Shown in pieces: positions 1,181-29,440 of a stretch of 35,232 nucleotides of DNA (position 1 is the first letter of the stretch; each line of letters starts with the position of its first letter). Both the position numbers and the translations under genes were made by a program. Origin of the DNA: Chiloscyllium plagiosum (taxonomy: Eukaryota); contig NC_057756.1 in the NCBI RefSeq assembly GCF_004010195.1, positions 5,776,034-5,811,265 of the forward strand, read 5' to 3'. The notes beneath the pieces are model-generated. The model was not told where the DNA came from. It was given only the letters and a program-made list of their open reading frames with translations, and did no database searches.

Positions 1181-1263
1181 AAAGCTAGTGCTTCCAGATA
1201 AATCTGGTGTTGTCTGATTTTTAACTTTGTCCAATCCAGTCCAACACCGGCAACTCCACATCA
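1181..1263 (+). mobile_element. Partial copy of hammerhead element family B (downstream arm only)
   Basis: AAAGCTAGTGCTTCC...GATTTTTAACTTTGTCCAATCCAGTCCAACACCGGC matches the arms of 3463-3802 and 23405-23578; the CTGATGA half of the core is absent. Confidence 0.65.
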
Positions 1264-3462: not shown

Positions 3463-3802
3463 GATTCGGAGATGCCGGTGTTGGACTGGGGTGGACAAAG
3501 TTAAACATCACATAACACCAGGTTATAGTCCAACGGGTTTAATTGGAAGCACTAGCTTTCGGAGCGCTGCTCCTTCACCAGGTGGACAGGCATATGGACG
3601 TACATGGAATAGTGTAGGTGGGATGGGCTTCAGATTAGTATGACAGGGCAGTGCAACATCGAGGGCTGAAGGGCCTGTACTGTGCTGTAATGTTCTATGT
3701 TCGATGTTCTATGGACAACCACCTGATGAAAGTGTGCCGCTCTGAAAGCTAATGTTTGTAATTAAACCTGTTGGACTATAACCTGATGTTGTGTGATTTT
3801 TA
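3463..3802. mobile_element. Foldback hammerhead element family B, copy B1 (two inverted cores), split by a CR1 tail
   Basis: 12-bp TSD ACAACTACTCAA at 3451-3462 and 3803-3814; inverted arms ACCAGGTTATAGTCCAAC..TTTAATT / AATTAAACCTGTTGGACTATAACCTG; minus-strand core 3550-3584 and plus-strand core 3720-3754, both partly mutated. Confidence 0.8.
3589..3711 (+). mobile_element. CR1 LINE extreme 3' tail insertion
   Basis: Near-identical to 31890-32014, ends GAAGGGCCTGTACTGTGCTGTA(ATGTTCT)n; flanked by TGGACA at 3583-3588 and 3712-3717. Confidence 0.85.
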
Positions 3803-4055
3803 ACAACTACTCAAATAAGTTTCACAAAAGGAATCAAATTCCTTATTTCCAAAAGAAAACACAGCCGTCCTTGCAAACCTCTGGGTCTTAAATCACTTCC
3901 TTCTAACTTCAGTCCACAGTTTTAAAAAAAAGCACCAAAGTGAAAAGAGACAGTCTTTGCAGTTCTGAGTTTGTGAAGTGACCCACTGATACCTCTAAGG
4001 TCTAAGCAAGGAATGTAATGTTTATATACGATATCTGTATATTTGCAGCATTTGT

Positions 4056-8209: not shown

Positions 8210-10785
8210 TGGTTTGAAGTGTGTCTACTTCAACGCCAGGTGCATCTGGAATAAGGTAGGTGAACTTCCAGCATGGGTTGGTACCTGGGACTTCGATGTT
8301 GTGGCCATTTCGGAGACATGGATAGTGCAGGGTCAGGAATGGTTGTTGCAGATTCCAGGGTTTAGATGTTTCAGTGAGAACAGGGAAGGTGTTAAAAGGG
8401 GGGGGGAGGTGTGGCTTTATTAGTCAGGGACAGTATTACGGTTGCAGAAAGGACGTTTGATGAGGGCCCGTCTCCTGAGGTAGTATGGGCTGAGGTTAGA
8501 AACAGGAAAGGAGAGGTCAGCCTGTTGGGAGTTTTCTATAGGCCGCCAAGAAGTTCCAGAGATGTAGGGGAAAGGATAGCAAAGATGATTCTGGATAGGA
8601 GTGAGAGAGACAGGGTAGTTCTTACGGGGGCCTTTAACTTTCCAAATATTGACCAGGAATACTATAGTTCGAGAACTTTAAATGGGTCAGTTTTTGTCCA
8701 GTGTGTGCAGGAGGGTGTCCCTCCACAGAATGTTAGGGCAGTACGGTGGCTCAGTGGTTAGCACTGCTGCCTCACAGCACCAGCATCCCAGGTTCGATCC
8801 CAGCCTTGGGCAACTGTCTGTCTGGAGTTTACACATTCTCCCAGTGTCTGCGTGGGTTTCCTCCCACAGTCCAAAGATGTGCAGGTCAGGTGATATGGCC
8901 ATGCTAAATTACCCATGGTGTTAGGTGCATTAGTCAGAGGGAAATGGGTCTGGGTGGGTTACTCTTTGGAGGGCTGGTGTGGACTGGTTGGGCTGAAGGG
9001 TCTGTTTCCACACTGTAGGGAATCTAATAAAAAAAAAATGTAGACAGGCCAACAAGGGATGAGGACACATTGGATTTTCTGCTGAGTAATGAAGCAGGTC
9101 AGGTGACAGATTTGGAGGTAGGTGAGCTATTTGATGATAGTGACCATGATTCAGTCACATTTACTTTAGCAATGGAAAGGGATAGGTATATACCGCAGAA
9201 CAAGAGTTATAGCTGGGGGAAAGGTATTGTGATACGATTAAGCAAGATTTAATATGCGTAGGATTGGGAAAGAAACTGCAGGGGATGGGCACAATTGAAA
9301 AGTGGAGCTTGTTCAAGGAACAGCTACTGCATGTCCTTGATAAGTATGTGCCTGTCAGGCAGGGAGGAAGTGGTCGAGCGAGGGAGCTGTGGTTTACGAA
9401 GGAAGTTGAATCTCTTGTCAAGAGGAAGAAGAAGGCGTATGTAAGGATGAGACGTGAAGGCCCAGTTAGGGTGCTGGAGAGTTACAAGTTAGTCAGGAAA
9501 GATCTAAAGGGAGAGCTAAGAAGTGTCAGGAGTGGACATGAGAAGTCGTTGACAGGTAGGATCAAGGAAAACCCTAAAGCTTTCCAGTGGTATGTCAGGA
9601 ATAAAAGAATGAGTCGAGTAAGATTAGGGACAATCAAGAACAGTAGTGGGAAATTGTGTGTGGAGTCCAAGGAGATAGGAGAGACACTAAATGAATATGT
9701 TTTGTCAGTATTCACACAGGAAAAATACAAAGTTGTCGAGGAGAATACTGAGGTACAGACTGCGAGACTAAACAGGATTGAGATTTACAAGGAGGAGGAG
9801 TTAGCAATTCTGCAAAGTGTGAAAATAAATAAGTCCCATGGGCTGAATGGGATTTACCGTAGGATTCTCTGGGAAGCCAGGGAGGAGATTGCAGAGCCTT
9901 TGGCTTTGATCTTCATATAATCATTGTCTACAGGAATAGTGCCAGAAGACTGGAGGAGAGCAAATGTTGTCCCCTTGTTCAAGAAGGGGAGTAGGGACAA
10001 CCCTGGGAATTATAGATCAGTGAGCTTTATGCGGTTGTGGGTAAAGTATTGGAAAGGATTACAAGAGATAGGATTTATAGTCATCTAGAGAGGAATAAGT
10101 TGATTAGGGACAGTCAACACGGTTTTGTGACGGGTAAGTCATGCCCTTTGAGAAAGTGACCAAACAGGTGGATGAGGGTAAAGCGGTTGATGTGGTGGAT
10201 ATGGATTTCAGTCAGGTGTTTGATAAGGTTCCCCACGATAGGCTACTTCACAAAATTTGGAGGTTTGGATTGAGGGTAATTTAGCGGTTTGGATCAGAAA
10301 TTGGCTCGCTGAATAAAGGCAGAGGGTGATGGTTGATGGGAAATGTTCATCCTGGAGTTCAGTTACGAGTGCGGTACTGCAAGGATCCACTGCTGTTTGT
10401 CATTTTCATAAGTGACCTGGATAAGGGAGTAGAAGATGAGTTAGTAAATTTGCAGATGGCACTAAGGTCGGAGGAGTTGTGGATAGAGCAGAAGGATGTT
10501 GTAGGTTATAGAGGGACGTGGATAAGCTGCAGAGCTGGGCTGAGAGGTGGCAAATGGAGTTTAATGTGGGAAAGTGTGAGGTGATTCACTTTGAAAGGAA
10601 TAACAGGAATACAGAGGACTGGGCTAATAGTAAGATTCTTGGGTGTCTGGATGAGCAGAAAGATCTCTGAGACCATATACATGGGCCCCTGAAAGTTGCC
10701 ACCCAGGTTGATAGGATTGTTAAGAAGGCATATGATTTTATTGGTAGAGGGATTGAGTTTCGGAGCCACAAGGTCATATTGCAGC
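8210..10785 (+). pseudogene. CR1 ORF2: APE endonuclease + reverse transcriptase, frameshifted
   Basis: LKCVYFNAR, AISETW, GVFYRPP, G(A)FNFP, DSDH; KENPKAF; DNPGNYR, SQHGF, degenerate FAD(G)TK; multiple stops and frameshifts. Confidence 0.9.
8736..9038 (+). mobile_element. HE1 SINE (V-SINE, tRNA-derived)
   Basis: A box TGGCTCAGTGG, B box GGTTCGATCCC, V-domain TGGAGTTT.CACATTCTCCC.GTGTCTGCGTGGGTTTCCTCC, CR1-like tail GAAGGGTCTGTTTCCACACTGTA. Confidence 0.92.
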
Positions 10786-14950: not shown

Positions 14951-15190
14951 TTTCTTTTAAACCCAAAACACATAGAGGAGTTGATTAGCCATGTTGGGGA
15001 TTGGGAAAAGTATTTTTATTTCAAGTGTGACCCATGGAGTGGTGGGACGACATAAGGGTGCAATCACCCAGCCTCAGTGCTAACCCTCCGTTCTGAGATC
15101 ATCTTGGTAAATGTGCTTTCTCATGTAGGACAGTGATTTCTGATGCTCCACATTACATTTATCTAAAAGGATCCATTCTCTGTGTGTTAG

Positions 15191-15471
15191 ATTTCACAGA
15201 TAAACCTATGATACACCCTGTGGAAATTGTCACAGGAAAGCGTGTGAATTTAAGCTGTATCTTCAATACAACGTGCACTGGAACAGCACCTGCCTTAACC
15301 TGGGACACTCCCACTGCTGCACATGGATCACTCTCAAACACCGTCACTCAGCGTGGGGTCACTCTGAGCTATACTTCTGTTCTGAGCCTGACACCATCAC
15401 TCAGACACCAGGGACAAACGCTCACCTGCAGAGTGAGTTATCAGAGCAGACCCTCATACTGTCAGTGAAAT
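15191..15471 (+). pseudogene. Siglec/MAG/CD22-like C2-set immunoglobulin domain exon with a frameshift near its 3' end
   Basis: Acceptor ...TTCTCTGTGTGTTAG|, phase 1; DFTDKP..EIVTGKRVNLSCIFNTTCTGTAPALTW...YTSVLSLTPSLRHQGQTLTCRVSY; the G strand SEQTLILSVK lies in another frame and ends phase 1 at donor GTAACA (15472); exon length 281 is not a multiple of 3. Confidence 0.85.
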
Positions 15472-18945: not shown

Positions 18946-19643
18946 TAGAACATAGAACATTACAGCACAGTAGGCCCTTCAGCCCTCGATATTGCACCGA
19001 CCTGTGGGACCAATCTGAAGCCCATCCAACCTACCGTATTCCATTCTCGTCTATATACCTATCCAATGGCTGCTCAAATGCCCATAAAGTTGGCGAATCT
19101 ACTACCATTGCAGGCAGTGCGTTCCACACCCCTACTACTCCCTGAGTAAAGAAATTACCTCTGACATCTGTCCTATAACTATCACCCCTCAATTTAAAGT
19201 ATCTCCCCTTGCGCTATACATCATCATCCTAAGAAAAAGGCTCTCACTGTCCATCTGATCTAACCCTCTGATTATCTTATATGTCTCAATTAAGTCACCT
19301 CTTAACCTTTTTCTCTCCAACAAAAACAGCCTCAAGGCCCTCAGCCTTTCCTCATAAAACCTTCCCTCCATACCAGGTAACATCCTAGTAAATCTCCTCT
19401 GCACCCTTTCCAAAGCTTCCACCTCGTTCTTATAATGTGGTGACCAGAACTGTACACAATACTCCAAGTGCGGCTGCACCAGAGTTTTGTACAGCTGCAG
19501 CATAACCTCATGGCTCCGAAACTCAATCCCTCTACCAATAAAAGCTAACACACCGTATACCTTCTTACCAACCCTATCAACGTGGGTGGCAACTTTGAGA
19601 GATCTAGGGTGTAGGTTTGCTCGCTGAGCTGTAGGTTTGATAT

Positions 19644-19683
19644 CCAGACGTTTCATTACCTGGCTAGGTAACATCATCAGTGG
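19644..19683 (-). ncRNA. Minimal type I hammerhead ribozyme motif in the Penelope 3' terminus (family C)
   Basis: Minus strand: CCA CUGAUGA U GUUACCU AGCC AGGUAAU GAAA CG UC UGG; stem I CCA/UGG, 7-bp stem II, palindromic ACGU in place of stem III. Confidence 0.85.
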
Positions 19684-19871
19684 CGACTTCCAAGTGAAGC
19701 GAAGCTGTTGTCTCCTGCTTTCTATTTATATCTTTCTCCTGGATGGGGTTCCTGGGGTTTGTGGTGATGTCATTTCCTGTTCGTTTTCTGAGGGGTTGAT
19801 AGATGGCACCTAGATCTATGTGTTTGTTTATGGCGTGGTGGTTGGAGTGCCAGACCTCGAGGAATCCTCTG

Positions 19872-19963
19872 AAAAATGTGTTGCTGGAAAAGCGCAGCAG
19901 GTCAGGCAGCATCCAAGGAACAGTAGAATCGCCGTTTCGGGCATAAGCCCTTCTTCAGGAATT
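19872..19963 (-). mobile_element. Hammerhead element family A, copy A2, nested in the Penelope element
   Basis: Minus strand TTC CTGAAGA A GGGC TTAT GCCC GAAA CG GC; imperfect TSD CTCGAGGAATCCTCTG / CTCTAGGAATTCTCTG (19856-19871, 19964-19979). Confidence 0.8.
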
Positions 19964-22281
19964 CTCTAGGAATTCTCTGGTATGTCTTTGCTCAGCCTGT
20001 CCCAGGATAGATGTTTTGTCCCAGTCAAAATGGTGGTTTGTTTTCATCCGTGTGTAGGGCTACGAGGGAGAGAGGGTCGTGTCTTTTTGTGGCTAGTGGT
20101 GTTTATGTTCCTGGTGGCTACCTTTCTTCCTGTTTGTCCTACGTAGTGTTTGTGGCAGTCCTTGCATGGAATTTTGTAGATGACGTTGGTTTTGTCCATG
20201 GGTTGTACTGGGTCTTTTAAGTTTGTTAGTTTTTGTTTGAGAGTGTTGGTGGGTTTGTGTGCTACTAGGTTTCCAAGGGGTCTTAGTAGTCTGGCTGTCA
20301 TTTCTGAAAATTGTTTGATGTATGGTAAGGTGGTTAGGGTTTCTGGCTGTGTTTGGTCTGCTTGTCATGGTTTGTTCTTGAGGAATCTGCGCACTGTATT
20401 TTTTGAGTATCCGTTCTTCTCGAATAAGTTGTATAGGTGGTTCTCCTCTGTTTTCCGAAGTTCGTCTGTGCTGCAGTGTGTGGTGGCTCGTTGGAATAGT
20501 GTTTTGATACAGCTTCGTTTGTGTGTGTTGGGATGGTTGCCGGTGTAGTTAAGTAACGGACCCAGATTTTTGGTTTGATGATTGGTAGGGCTGTTTGTTC
20601 TAGTCTTTGCATTACTGTTTCTGCTATGAATCCTGATAGCGGAGATCCCATGGGTGTGCCGTTGGTTTGTTTGTAGACTATGTTGTTGAAAGTGAAGTGG
20701 GTGGTGAGGCACAGGTCCACTAGCTTCATGATGTTTTCATTGGTAATGGGATTGATGGTGGTTGGTGTGTGTGTGATGGTCTCTTCTAAAAGTGTGGTAA
20801 GTGTTTCCTTTGCCAGGTCGATGTTGATGGAGGTGAACTGTGCTGTTACGTCGAATGAGATCTTTGCTTCGTCTTCCTCTATTTTGGTGTTTTTGATGAT
20901 TTTTAGGAATTCCTGGGTGGAGTGGATGGAGTGCTGTGACCCTTCTACTAGGTATTTCAGTCTTGCGTGTAGCTCTTTGGCCAGTCTGTAAGTTGGTGTT
21001 CCGGGTAGTGAGACTATAGGTCTGAGGGGGGCTCCTGGTTTATGGATTTTTGGTAGTCCGTAGAATCGTGGGGTGTTGTTCCTGTCGGGTTTCAGTTTCT
21101 GGAATTCCGTCGTGTTTAATTGTCCGGAATTGAGTAATTTTGTTCCCTAGTTGTTGGGGTTGGGTCTAGCTCCACCTGTTGGTAGGTGTTGGTCTCTGCG
21201 AGTAGTGCATTGGCTTTCTCGCTGGCTTTCTCTGTCCAGGATGACTGTGAGCTGACCTTTGCCTGCAGGTAATATAACAATGTTTTTGTCTTTTTTGAGG
21301 GATTTATATACATGTACACCAAGATTCTCTCTGCTCATCCACACGACCAAGAATCTTACCATTAGCCCAGTGCTCTGTATTCCTGTTGCTCCTTCCAAAG
21401 TGAATCACCTCACACTTTTCCACATCAAACTCCGTTTGCCACCTCTCAGCCCAGCTCTGCAGCTTATCTATGTCCCTCTGTAACCTACAACTTCCTTCAT
21501 CACTGTCGACAACTCCACCAACTTTAGTGTTGTCTGCAAATTTACTAACCCATCCTTCTACACCCTCATCCAGGTCGTTTATAAAAATGACAAACAGCAG
21601 TGGGCCCAAAACAGATCCTTGCGGTACCTCACTTGTAACTGAGCTCCAGGATGAATATTTCCCATCAACCACCACCCTCTGTCTTCTTTCAGCGAGCCAA
21701 TTTCTGATTCAAACGGCTAAATCACTCTCACTCCCATACTTCCATATTTTGTACAATAGCCTACCATGGGGAACCGTATCAAACGCCTTACTGAGATCTA
21801 TATACACCACACCAATGACTTTACCCTCATCCACCTGTTTGGTCACCAACTCAAGGAACTCAATAAGGTCTGTGAGGCACGGCCTACCCTTCACAAAACC
21901 GTGCTGACTATCCCTAATCAGCTTATTCCTCTCTAGATGATTGTAAATCCTATCTCTTATAACCTTTTCCAACACTTTACCCACAACCAAAGTAAGGCTC
22001 AATGGTCTATAATTTCCAGGGTTGTCTCTACTCCCCTCCTTGAACAAGGGCACAACATTTGCTCGCCTCCAGTCTTCCTGCACTATTCCTGTAGATAATG
22101 ATGACATAAAGATCCAAGCCAAAGGCTCTGCAGTCTCTTCCCTGGCATCCCAGAGAACCCTCGGATAAATCCCATCCAGCCCAGGGGACTTATCTGTTTA
22201 CACACTTTCCAGAATTGCTAACACCACCTCCTTGTGAACCTCAATCCCATCTCGTCTAGTAGCCTGTACCTCAGTATTCTC

Positions 22282-23080
22282 AAAGAACAAAGAACAAAGG
22301 AAATTACAGCACAGGAACGGGCCCTTCGGCCCTCCAAGCCTGCGCTGATCCTAGCCTTGATCTAAACCTGTCACCTATTTTCTAACATCTGCATCCCTTT
22401 GCTCCCTGACCATTCATGTATCTATCCAGAGACATCTTAAATGATGCTATCATGCCTGCCTCTACTACCTCCACTGGCAACGCATTCCAGGCAACCACCA
22501 TCCTCTGCATGAAGGACTTTCACACGTCTATCTCTCCCCTAAACCTTTCCCCTCTCACCTTGAACTTGTGACCCCCTAGTAATTGAGTCCCCCACTCTGG
22601 GAGAAAGCTTCTTGCTATCCACCCAATGTGTACCTCTCATGATTTTGTAGACCTCAATCAGATCCCCTCTCAATCTCTGTCTTTCTAATGAAAATAATCC
22701 TAATCTACTCAACCTCTCTTCACAGCTAGCGCCCTCCATACCAGGCAACATCCTGGTGAACCTCCTCTGCACCCTCTCTAAAGCATCCACATCCTTTTGG
22801 TAATGTATTCCAAATGTGGCCGAACCAAAGTCATGTTCAGCTGTAACATGACCTGCCAACTCTTGTACATTCCTGAAGAAGGGCTTATGCCCGAAACGTC
22901 GATTCTCCTGTTCCTTGGATGCTGCCTGACCTGCTGCGCTTTTCCAGCAACACATTTTCAGCTCTGATCTCCAGCTTCTGCAGTCCTCACTTTCTTCTGC
23001 CAACTCTTGTACTCAATACCCCGTCTGATGAAGGAAAGCAAGCTGTATGCCTACTTGACCACTCTACTGAGCTACGTTGA
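22282..23080 (-). mobile_element. CR1 LINE 3' portion
   Basis: AAGAACAAAGAACAAAG tail; ALERVQRRFTRMLPG...RGDLIEVYKIMRG in ORF 22539-23003. Confidence 0.88.
22869..22996 (+). mobile_element. Hammerhead element family A, copy A3 (core intact)
   Basis: Perfect 16-bp TSD CTGCCAACTCTTGTAC (22853-22868, 22997-23012); CTGAAGA (22873-22879) A GGGC TTAT GCCC GAAA CG TC GA. Confidence 0.88.
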
Positions 23081-23404
23081 AATATGAGAGGGGGGAGCAT
23101 TTTGCAGTGATCATAAGGCCATCAGATCAAAGATTGTTATGAAAAAAGGACAAGGATGGACCTGAATCCAAAGTTCTAAACATGGGAAAGTCCAATGTTA
23201 ATAAGATCAGATTTCATTTAGCTGGAGTAGATTGGGAGCATATACTTTTAAGTAAATCTCTGTCAGAATATTAGGATACATTCCTGAAGGAATTTGGGAA
23301 TGGGCCGAGCCAACGTGTTCCATAAAGATAAAATGTGAGATCAACAAATCCTGTGAACTCTGGATGTCAAGGGAAATTCAGGATTGGATAAAGAAAAAAA
23401 GGAA

Positions 23405-23578
23405 TGATCCAGAGATGCCGGTGTTGGACTGGGGTGTACAAAGTTGAAAATCACGCTAGCTTTCGGAGCGACGCTCCTTCATCAAGTGATCACCTGATGA
23501 AGGAGCGTCGCTCCGAAAGCTAGTGTGCTCCCAATTAAACCTGTTGGACTATAACCTGGTGTGGTGTGATTTTCAACT
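23405..23578. mobile_element. Foldback hammerhead element family B, copy B2
   Basis: 68-bp palindrome 23456-23523 with one mismatch; plus-strand core CAC CTGATGA A GGAGC GTC GCTCC GAAA GC TA GTG intact; A-rich approximate TSD (AGAAAAAAAGGAA / AGAAAAAGGAA). Confidence 0.85.
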
Positions 23579-24036
23579 GAGAAAAAGGAAGGCAGATATC
23601 GTGGGCTTAAAACTGTTGAATCCAGAAAGAAGTATATAACATGTATAAAACAAAACTTAAAAAGGAAACGGAGGGGGCATGAAAGGATAATGGCAGGTAA
23701 AATAAAGGAAAATCCTCATTACTTTATAAGTACAATAAGAATTTTTTTAAAACGCAGAAAGGTGTTGGGCCCATCAGAATTACCATGGTACCTTTAGCCT
23801 GGAGCCAGAGGTCAAAGGGAGGGTTCAAAATAAATACTTGGTGTTGGGGTTCAGCAGTGTGAGGGACAATGTGAGAGATCAGGGAGATGGAGTGTAATAT
23901 ACTTAAAGAAGTCAGCATGGACAGAGAGGAGATTCTGAGTGGTCTGGCAGTGTTAGAAGTAGATAAATCACCAAGTTCAGATGAAGTGTTTCTCAGACTG
24001 TTGAGGGTGGTAAATTTGGGGGGGATGTGGTAATAG

Positions 24037-28651: not shown

Positions 28652-29440
28652 ATTAGATTAGATTCCCTGCAGTGTGGAAACAGGCCCTTTGGCCCAACAA
28701 GTCCATACTGACCCTAGTCTATATTTACCCCTGACTAATGCATCTAACCCACACATCCCTGAACACTATGGGTAATTTAGCATGGCTAATTCACCTTAAC
28801 CTATACACATCCCTGAACACTATGGGTAATTTAGCATGGCCAATTCATCTTAACCTATACACATCCCTGAACACTATGGGTAATTTAGCATGGCTAATTC
28901 ACCTTAACCTACACACGTTCCTGAACACTGGGCAATTTAGCATGGCTAATTCACCTTAACCTACACGTGTTCCTGAATACTATGGGTAATTTAGCATGGC
29001 TAATTCACCTTAACCGACACACGTTCCTGAATACTATGGGTAATTTAGCATGGCTAATTCACCTTAACCTACACACGTTCCTGAATACTATGGGTAATTT
29101 AGCATGGCTAATTCACCTTAACCTACACATGTTCCTGAATACTATGGGTAATTTAGCGTGGCTAATTCACCTAAGCTACATGTTCCTGAACACTATGGAT
29201 AATTTAGCATGGCCAATTCACCCTAACTTGCACATCCTGAACACTATGGGTAATTTAGCACGGCCAATTCACCTTAACCTGCACATCTTTTAGATTGTGG
29301 GAGGAAACCGGAACACCCAGAGGAAATCCACGCAGACACGGGGAGAATGTGCACACTTCACACAGACAGTCACCCGAGGGGGGATTTGAACCCTGGCATT
29401 GTGAGGCAGCAGTGCTAACCACTGAGCCACCATGCCGCCC
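28652..29440 (-). mobile_element. HE1 SINE with internal minisatellite expansion
   Basis: Tail at 28652, head ending GAGCCACCATGCCGCCC at 29440. Confidence 0.92.
28750..29290. repeat. Tandem array of ten ~54-bp units derived from the HE1 body
   Basis: CCTGAA units start at 28758, 28812, 28866, 28920, 28972, 29026, 29080, 29134, 29185, 29236. Confidence 0.95.

What the first reader, a model, noticed from the sequence alone, without database searches (positions are those of the whole stretch)
23405..23578. Family B: 68-bp palindrome encoding back-to-back hammerheads on both strands
Seen: 23456-23523 is a palindrome (one mismatch) centred on GTGA|TCAC. The plus strand reads CAC CUGAUGA A GGAGC GUC GCUCC GAAA GC UA GUG, with stem I CAC/GUG, 5-bp stem II and palindromic AGCU at stem III. 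The minus strand carries the same core with a C3-to-U change. Stems differ entirely from families A and C while the core is conserved, which is natural covariation evidence for the fold. Inference: an inverted pLTR structure from Penelope-type replication; transcription in either direction would give a ribozyme-containing long hairpin (dsRNA or cruciform potential).
Basis: partly seen in the sequence, partly recalled or inferred. Interest (0 to 1): 0.75.

Follow-up and report, generated by a model that had tools for sequence, protein, structure and literature searches.

The report
Head-to-head Penelope retrotransposon leader stub
This hairpin is a real but decayed 174-base insertion of two head-to-head copies of the ribozyme-bearing leader of a very common Penelope-type jumping gene, a known layout, likely made when two short DNA copies ran off the capped start of the element's RNA and were joined; its ribozymes are predicted to be locked inside the hairpin.

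Summary
The 68-bp palindrome and both hammerhead cores are there. They are the middle of a 174-bp insertion (23405-23578) with a 12-bp target duplication (1 mismatch), a short arm, and a long tailed arm that has lost 41 bp. The arm is the 5' leader of a Neptune/Nematis-type Penelope-like retroelement (RT plus GIY-YIG); its tail ends at the ORF start codon. Inverted arm, one-sided tail and TSD are a published layout, and this scan found it before on other DNA, this genome included. The centre is not fixed: 48 exact centres against 1,221 close foldbacks. Both ribozymes are predicted masked in the hairpin, the minus one is mutated, and inserted cores decay neutrally. Less ordinary family-wide clues: arm ends peak 8 nt before the core and carry one extra G (28 of 29); arms of one insertion often differ at subfamily markers (18 of 50); family RNAs are polyadenylated inside the arm. 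These favour two cDNAs running off a capped RNA end. New member of a known kind; interest 0.28.

The parts
23393..23404 (+). left copy of 12-bp target-site duplication (1 mismatch to right copy)
   Evidence: sequence; 9-bp exact core; family TSD mode 11-13 bp
23405..23489 (-). long (tailed) arm: element leader from -4 to +121 relative to hammerhead C3, with a 41-nt internal deletion near 23456
   Evidence: alignment to family copies
23405..23441 (-). one-sided tail, about 37 nt, ending at the first base of the parent ORF start codon
   Evidence: tail defined in PMC8557442 and PMC3846280
23454..23488 (-). damaged minimal hammerhead (C3U at 23485; stem I 3' strand altered at 23455)
23489..23490 (.). 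head-to-head junction; the self-complementary AT is a 2-nt microhomology shared by both arms at position -5
   Evidence: same class as L017; 48 exact copies genome-wide
23491..23525 (+). intact minimal type I hammerhead: C3 at 23494, stem II 23502-23514, predicted cleavage after 23522, 3-bp stem I
   Evidence: criteria from PMC4209133
23490..23578 (+). short arm: leader from -4 to +84
   Evidence: family short arms end at +79..+91
23534..23539 (+). ATTAAA poly(A)-signal variant; family-wide reads turn into poly(A) at 23551 and 23554
   Evidence: 251 + 316 reads laid from copies anywhere in the genome, not assigned to this locus
23579..23590 (+). right copy of the target-site duplication
23060..24030 (+). 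host: decayed LINE ORF2 remnant (CR1-type, label recalled) interrupted by the insertion
   Evidence: flank translations; tblastn of the right flank to the window's other LINE copy, E 8e-6

Best explanation
The feature is a decayed insertion of two head-to-head copies of the 5' leader of a Neptune/Nematis-type Penelope-like retrotransposon, likely built at the insertion site from two separately primed cDNAs that each ran off the probably capped 5' end of element RNA. Shown: architecture (long tailed arm, short arm, 12-bp TSD), parent ORF, variable centre, arm-end hotspot with an extra G, marker discordance between arms, poly(A) inside the arm in family RNA. Inferred: the GIY-YIG endonuclease nicks both strands about 12 bp apart; each 3' end primes RT inside the RNA, one near +85 and one at the start codon (+121), as shown in vitro for the anole element; RNA starts at -8, so priming in the upstream pLTR gives only 95-130 nt of cDNA plus a C copied from the cap, while priming in a downstream read-through pLTR gives the long copies; the two cDNA ends are joined by microhomology end joining, here trimmed to AT. 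The 41-nt deletion, C3U and other changes likely came later. The hammerhead is a passenger, predicted to be masked by the hairpin.
For: Parent: RT (Pfam RVT_1, E 5.5e-9), DKG, C-X4-CxxC linker and CCHH GIY-YIG motifs; the arm runs straight into the ORF start in L262 and L280-L283. Layout: 53 of 70 tail-selected copies have an inverted arm within 1.5 kb, 49 of the 53 ending at +79..+91; 58 of 70 long arms end within 2 nt of the A of the ATG (whose scale reads 1 nt high); TSD of 9 bp or more in 29 of 42 against a shuffled mean of 0.08. 5' hotspot: 58 of 123 arm ends lie at -14..+1. In 50 close foldbacks the modal end is -8 (29 of 100 ends), followed by a non-parent G in 28 of 29, and in 14 of 15 where the junction has inserted bases; long copies have that base in 1 of 27; p 7e-6 and 5e-3 against a 60% null. 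Of the first 100 of 1,477 non-parent cases genome-wide, 78 carry it (counted by eye); in L100-L129, 21 of 24 arms that end there carry it. An extra G marks capped ends in L1 insertions (PMC11702581). Two templates: 18 of 50 pairs differ at one or more recurrent markers, 5 at two, against about 2% background per site. In vitro precedent: both strands cut and extended, two internal start sites bounding the tail, predicted dimer, cleavage not needed (PMC11167929).
Against: No RNA 5' end was seen: the raw-read library is poly(A) single-cell RNA and no start or end peak was listed. The sequence just upstream of the core is 60% C, so joins alone supply some of the extra base; RT terminal-transferase addition at a pause would look the same. 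Both arms carry the extra G in only 2 of 50 pairs. Arms also share private variants (8 against 0.12 shuffled in 69 pairs), including this copy (23446/23574), which fits one template, fold-back copying or later conversion. About half of arm ends lie elsewhere. Poly(A) at +57/+60 falls before both priming sites, so long copies need read-through RNA. Samples are from the start of contig C1 and favour young copies. Clade placement rests on motifs, not a tree. Pfam did not call the GIY-YIG piece.
Confidence: 0.68

Rival explanations
1. Same element, but the second arm is copied from the first by self-priming or snap-back (on an antisense RNA, as proposed for rotifer PLEs, or on the first cDNA), so one template makes the palindrome.
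For: PMC3846280 interprets palindromes at inverted junctions as self-priming. Arms share locus-private variants, 8 against 0.12 expected; this copy has such a variant in both arms. Markers agree more than chance (loop position 41 of 50 against 25.4; poly(A)-signal marker 33 of 33 against 26.0).
Against: 18 of 50 pairs differ at recurrent markers, 5 at two. Many junctions hold non-palindromic inserted bases, and 2 of 50 have the extra G on both arms. The two arms end at different fixed points (+85 and +121).
Confidence: 0.15
2. Two cDNAs, but the hotspot is an RT pause at the 5' foot of the folded hammerhead (or a processed RNA end) with a non-templated base added, not a capped start site.
For: Ends spread over -14..+1 at the edge of the fold. 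In D. virilis an intron end maps to the 5' end of helix I (PMC4209133). No start peak in RNA.
Against: The added base is specific to -8 and nearly always the same. No AG acceptor lies at -10/-9 and no shared upstream exon follows. Stem I is weak (probability about 0.27). Few ends fall at the cleavage site (5 of 123 between +25 and +34).
Confidence: 0.12
3. The foldback is a self-propagating non-autonomous unit (MITE-like or retrozyme-like) with a fixed centre.
For: 48 exact copies of this centre exist; 39 others were top hits of the window query, which favoured them.
Against: 1,221 close foldbacks with 20 different spacer lengths among 50 read; variable 9-16-bp TSDs; arms differ within insertions; an RT parent, no transposase parent seen; units are head-to-head, not the head-to-tail tandems that define non-LTR retrozymes (bioRxiv 10.64898/2026.07.22.740005).
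Confidence: 0.03
4. This copy is a functional host element: a dsRNA source or a bidirectional ribozyme switch.
For: Strong predicted hairpin (-93.9 kcal/mol RNA, -53.3 DNA); an Ig-domain exon lies 8 kb upstream on the plus strand.
Against: Both ribozymes are predicted masked and one is mutated; the left arm is deleted; family cores decay neutrally; it sits in a dead LINE remnant; no downstream partner exon was found.
Confidence: 0.02

Closest known systems
Inverted-pLTR insertions of endonuclease-bearing Penelope-like elements (PMC3846280, PMC8557442; passages read)
   Same: Head-to-head pLTR copies, 30-40-bp tail on one end only, TSD, palindrome at the inverted junction, hammerhead in the pLTR.
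   Different: Here a large share of copies are leader-only stubs with arm ends clustered at -14..+1 and an extra G at -9; the tail ends at the start codon instead of lying inside the ORF.
PAc, Poseidon element of the green anole (PMC11167929; parts 1-2 of 4 read: abstract, main text, start of methods)
   Same: Two internal RT start points bound the tail; both target strands extended; hammerhead cleavage not needed.
   Different: PAc is Poseidon clade and its ORF starts inside the hammerhead; this family has the CX2-5CxxC linker and its ORF starts at +121. The parts read do not describe leader-only foldbacks or a cap-derived base.
Minimal type I hammerheads of metazoan PLEs (PMC4209133; parts 1-2 of 4 read)
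   Same: Core boxes, extra base between 9 and 10.1, G10.1-C11.1, palindromic 15.2-16.2; dual motifs on opposite strands 100-700 bp apart already reported in Schistosoma; monomers inactive in vitro.
   Different: Stem II is 5 bp and stem I 3 bp; the two motifs abut and mask each other.
L1 twin-primed 5' inversions (PMC11702581; passages read)
   Same: Both nicked ends extended by RT, joined by microhomology, TSD kept; extra G at capped 5' ends.
   Different: L1 segments come from adjacent, mostly non-overlapping parts of the RNA and start at poly(A); here both arms copy the same leader from fixed internal points.

Membership tests
EN+ Penelope-like element (parent family) | single ORF with RT, including the DKG motif | tested here: met
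   RVT_1 E 5.5e-9; DKG and YIDD motifs; no intact full-length ORF seen, copies are broken or gapped
EN+ Penelope-like element (parent family) | C-terminal GIY-YIG with CCHH motif | tested here: met
   motif read in L062, L215, L229, L242 against criteria; Pfam gave no hit for this piece
EN+ Penelope-like element (parent family) | direct pLTRs around the ORF plus inverted 5' copy and one-sided 30-40-bp tail | tested here: met
   L280 and L283; 53 of 70 with inverted arm
EN+ Penelope-like element (parent family) | target-site duplication | tested here: met
   29 of 42 at 9 bp or more, shuffled mean 0.08; 12 bp with 1 mismatch in this copy
Neptune/Nematis clades | CX2-5CxxC linker between RT and EN | tested here: met
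   C-X4-CxxC in L211, L215, L222, L229, L235, L242, L248; altered in L062 and L233
Neptune versus Nematis | placement in an RT phylogeny | not tested
   no named reference set fetched; Neptune and Poseidon are the vertebrate clades in the bioRxiv survey, so Neptune is the likelier
Minimal type I hammerhead (plus arm) | conserved core, extra base at 9/10.1, G10.1-C11.1, palindromic 15.2-16.2 | tested here: met
Minimal type I hammerhead (minus arm) | C3-G8 (or U3-A8) pair and stem I | tested here: not met
   U3 with G8, stem I probability about 0
Minimal type I hammerhead | fold accessible in this copy's transcript | tested here: not met
   predicted stem II probability 0.0 in the whole element, both strands; a prediction only
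Minimal type I hammerhead | self-cleavage at the NUH site | not testable with these tools
   needs an assay; no read-end peak listed
Non-LTR retrozyme | head-to-tail tandem units each with a hammerhead | tested here: not met
   copies are inverted pairs or single arms; definition
MITE / DNA transposon (criteria recalled) | fixed short TSD, equal termini, transposase parent | tested here: not met
   variable 9-16-bp TSDs, unequal arms, RT parent

The most novel reading that the evidence does not exclude
These stubs record how Penelope-like elements integrate: a dimer primes both nicked strands on two RNAs, often from different source copies, at two internal sites, and copies the cap when it runs off the leader. 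The pLTR then works like a retroviral R region, with a start site 8 nt before the hammerhead and a poly(A) site about 57-60 nt after C3. This would replace the antisense self-priming idea and make thousands of genomic junctions a direct map of PLE start sites.
Probability: 0.5. Interest if true: 0.5.

Novelty: new member of a known kind. Interest (0 to 1): 0.28.

Why it matters
The locus itself is one of thousands of dead stubs and matters little. How PLE tandem and inverted structures form is called undefined in PMC8557442, and the only in vitro system leaves later steps open (PMC11167929). The junction statistics here (extra G at one position, two-allele insertions, poly(A) inside the pLTR) give specific predictions for that assay. 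For annotation, such foldbacks should be filed as PLE ends, not as MITEs or retrozymes.

Tried and rejected
Rfam scan of the window: no family at gathering score. PDB sequence search with the RT half: nothing at E 0.01. Pfam: no hit for 3 of 4 parent pieces, including GIY-YIG. The first DNA search scored only 40 of 3,235 candidates and favoured same-centre copies, so it was not used for frequencies. Core conservation was discarded because the selecting pattern fixed part of the core; (tail-selected) was used instead. 'Intact' ORFs of 900+ aa were runs of N. Run search: no RNA holder listed. Run X22 laid 0 reads (no test); X21 (about 2% read) gave no reads on the unique flanks, a weak blank, and no start or end peak. 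Contigs X15, X17, X18 showed no empty site and no piece spanning the insertion, so its age and polymorphism are open. No partner exon for the Ig exon within 30 kb upstream or 50 kb downstream of the window. Truncation at the ribozyme cut site as the source of the hotspot: rejected. Splice-acceptor origin: no AG at the hotspot. Paper searches listed no title or abstract start on a cap-derived base or two-template joining in PLE insertions; the library lacks most subscription papers, and no supplements were opened (those of PMC11167929 and PMC4209133 may bear on this; bioRxiv ones are closed). Sequence look-up in earlier findings gave nothing.

Full report
Observation. The window lies at G000:C47:5776034-5811265 in a 3.56-Gb genome. 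Bases 23456-23523 form a 68-bp palindrome with one mismatched pair, 23485/23494; folding of 23440-23582 gives z = -14.1 with 0 of 200 shuffles as good. The plus strand carries the hammerhead as described and the minus strand the C3U version. Rfam finds nothing at gathering score. Positions below are relative to hammerhead C3 (= 0).

The whole insertion. Against family copies the right arm (23490-23578) covers -4..+84 and the left arm (23405-23489, inverted) covers -4..+121 with a 41-nt deletion. The 68 bp is simply the part left of that deletion. A 12-bp duplication with one mismatch flanks the insertion (23393-23404, 23579-23590; exact core of 9). The host is a decayed LINE ORF2 remnant (the CR1 label is recalled).

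Family census. Exact matches in G000: 4,949 to a 34-nt core arm, 8,737 to a 32-nt tail piece, 1,221 close foldbacks with 0-30 nt between the arms, and 48 with this exact centre. I analysed 70 of the first 76 listed tail copies, all on contig C1; six were left out because they were already held under other ids. Of the 70, 53 have an inverted arm within 1.5 kb, and 49 of those end at +79..+91. 58 of 70 long arms end within 2 nt of +121 (its scale reads one too high). TSDs of 9 bp or more occur in 29 of the 42 copies scorable, against a shuffled mean of 0.08. A second inverted insertion of the family lies in this window at 3463-3804, with a 12-bp TSD and a different centre. The fixed centre is therefore not the propagating unit.

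Parent. Long insertions bracketed by the same long and short arms hold ORF pieces. These show RT (RVT_1, E 5.5e-9), DKG, a C-X4-CxxC linker and a GIY-YIG with CCHH, which PMC8557442 gives as marks of Neptune/Nematis PLEs (passages). Pfam did not call the endonuclease piece and I built no tree. In L262 and L280-L283 the tail runs directly into the ORF start codon at +121; L280 shows pLTR-ORF-pLTR plus an inverted arm upstream. So the arm is the element's 5' leader, repeated at its 3' end. No intact ORF was seen; the long ones were N-runs.

What is known. Inverted 5' copies, a 30-40-bp tail on one end, TSDs and palindromes at the junction are described for PLEs (PMC8557442; PMC3846280; passages read). 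Minimal hammerheads in pLTRs, including pairs on opposite strands, are in PMC4209133 (parts 1-2 of 4), where monomers were inactive. The anole element cuts and extends both strands, starts RT at two internal sites that bound the tail, is predicted to be a dimer, and does not need ribozyme cleavage (PMC11167929; parts 1-2 of 4). This scan's notes list 25 similar findings in at least 12 genomes, one from this genome with a leader run-off reading. I had written my cap and run-off idea before seeing them; they are not independent support.

Mechanistic clue 1, a 5' hotspot with an extra G. 58 of 123 arm ends in the tail sample lie at -14..+1, and only 5 lie at +25..+34 around the ribozyme cut site (BLAST ends). 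In the first 50 of the 1,221 close foldbacks, the modal end is -8 (29 of 100 ends). The next base is a sense G, where long copies have C, in 28 of 29, and in 14 of 15 at junctions with inserted bases; 1 of 27 long copies has it. Against a 60% null from the C-rich upstream sequence, p is 7e-6 and 5e-3. Genome-wide, 5,004 arms of one variant continue with the parent base and 1,477 do not; 78 of the first 100 of these carry the extra G (counted by eye), and 21 of 24 that end there in L100-L129. The window's second copy shows it too. In L1 such a G reflects the mRNA cap (PMC11702581, passages). A start site at -8 is inferred, not seen.

Clue 2, two templates. In those 50 pairs the arms differ at the loop marker in 9 of 50, at -4 in 7 of 25 and at a 2-nt indel in 7 of 31; 18 pairs differ at one or more markers and 5 at two. 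Background change is about 2% per site. Against this, markers still agree more than chance (41 of 50 against 25.4; 33 of 33 against 26.0), and arms share 8 locus-private variants against 0.12 shuffled in 69 pairs. The window copy has one such shared variant (23446/23574; 1 of 369 motif matches). A mix of same-source and different-source templates, or later conversion between arms, fits best; pure fold-back copying does not explain the discordant pairs.

Clue 3, poly(A) in the arm. In one poly(A) single-cell run (X21, about 2% read; listed under the same species label as the best DNA holder), 257 + 324 reads leave the arm into poly(A) at +57 and +60 (251 + 316), 12-15 nt after ATTAAA. These come from copies anywhere in the genome and may be host transcripts. 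504 reads continue upstream into the element's 3' UTR. No start or end peak was listed, and X22 gave no test.

The ribozymes. In a transcript from either strand the complement comes first; predicted stem II probability is 0.0 in the whole element, against 0.99 for the isolated plus-strand motif and 0.39 for the whole right arm. The minus motif has U3 facing G8 and no stem I. Among tail-selected long arms, non-CpG core sites change at 17/518 against 74/3052 downstream, and 15 of 22 complete motifs keep an intact core: no sign of selection after insertion. Variation between subfamilies concentrates in loop II, and families A and C have other stems on the same core, which supports the fold in the source elements only.

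Verdict. A real feature and a new member of a known kind: about 0.95 that it is a PLE inverted-leader insertion, about 0.68 for the two-cDNA, cap run-off mechanism as stated. The locus is ordinary; the family statistics are a modest, testable contribution. Interest 0.28.

Noticed in passing
window 3463-3804: Second inverted insertion of the same family: tailed arm 3463-3584 (-), short arm about 3716-3804 (+) starting with the extra G, 12-bp TSD, junction split by a later ~130-bp repeat fragment.
   Followed up: partly
window 1201-1263: Partial, older arm of the same family with its tail.
   Followed up: no
window 19600-21200 (-): Decayed second PLE (RT by Pfam, GIY-YIG motif, no zinc-finger linker seen, so Poseidon-type) ending in the family C hammerhead at 19680; a family A copy is inserted at about 19873-19962.
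   Followed up: partly
window 15187-15465 (+): Lone C2-set Ig-domain exon (Pfam C2-set_2, E 7.7e-8; Siglec/MAG-like by recall); no partner exon found in 30 kb upstream or 50 kb downstream of the window.
   Followed up: partly
L184, L187, L188, L194, L208 (junctions): Inserted junction bases are short copies of nearby arm sequence, as expected of polymerase-theta-type end joining (recalled).
   Followed up: no
L239-L248, L281-L283: Most long copies contain runs of N between the inverted arms, so the assembly likely under-represents full-length elements.
   Followed up: no
L063:2422-2995: N-terminal ORF piece of what looks like another PLE family, interrupted by a family B arm.
   Followed up: no
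window 28704-29286: Tandem array of about 54-nt units derived from the end of the window's tRNA-type SINE.
   Followed up: no
window 9741-10663 and 21326-22281: Two LINE RT fragments in inverted orientation, 83-88% complementary, about 11 kb apart.
   Followed up: no
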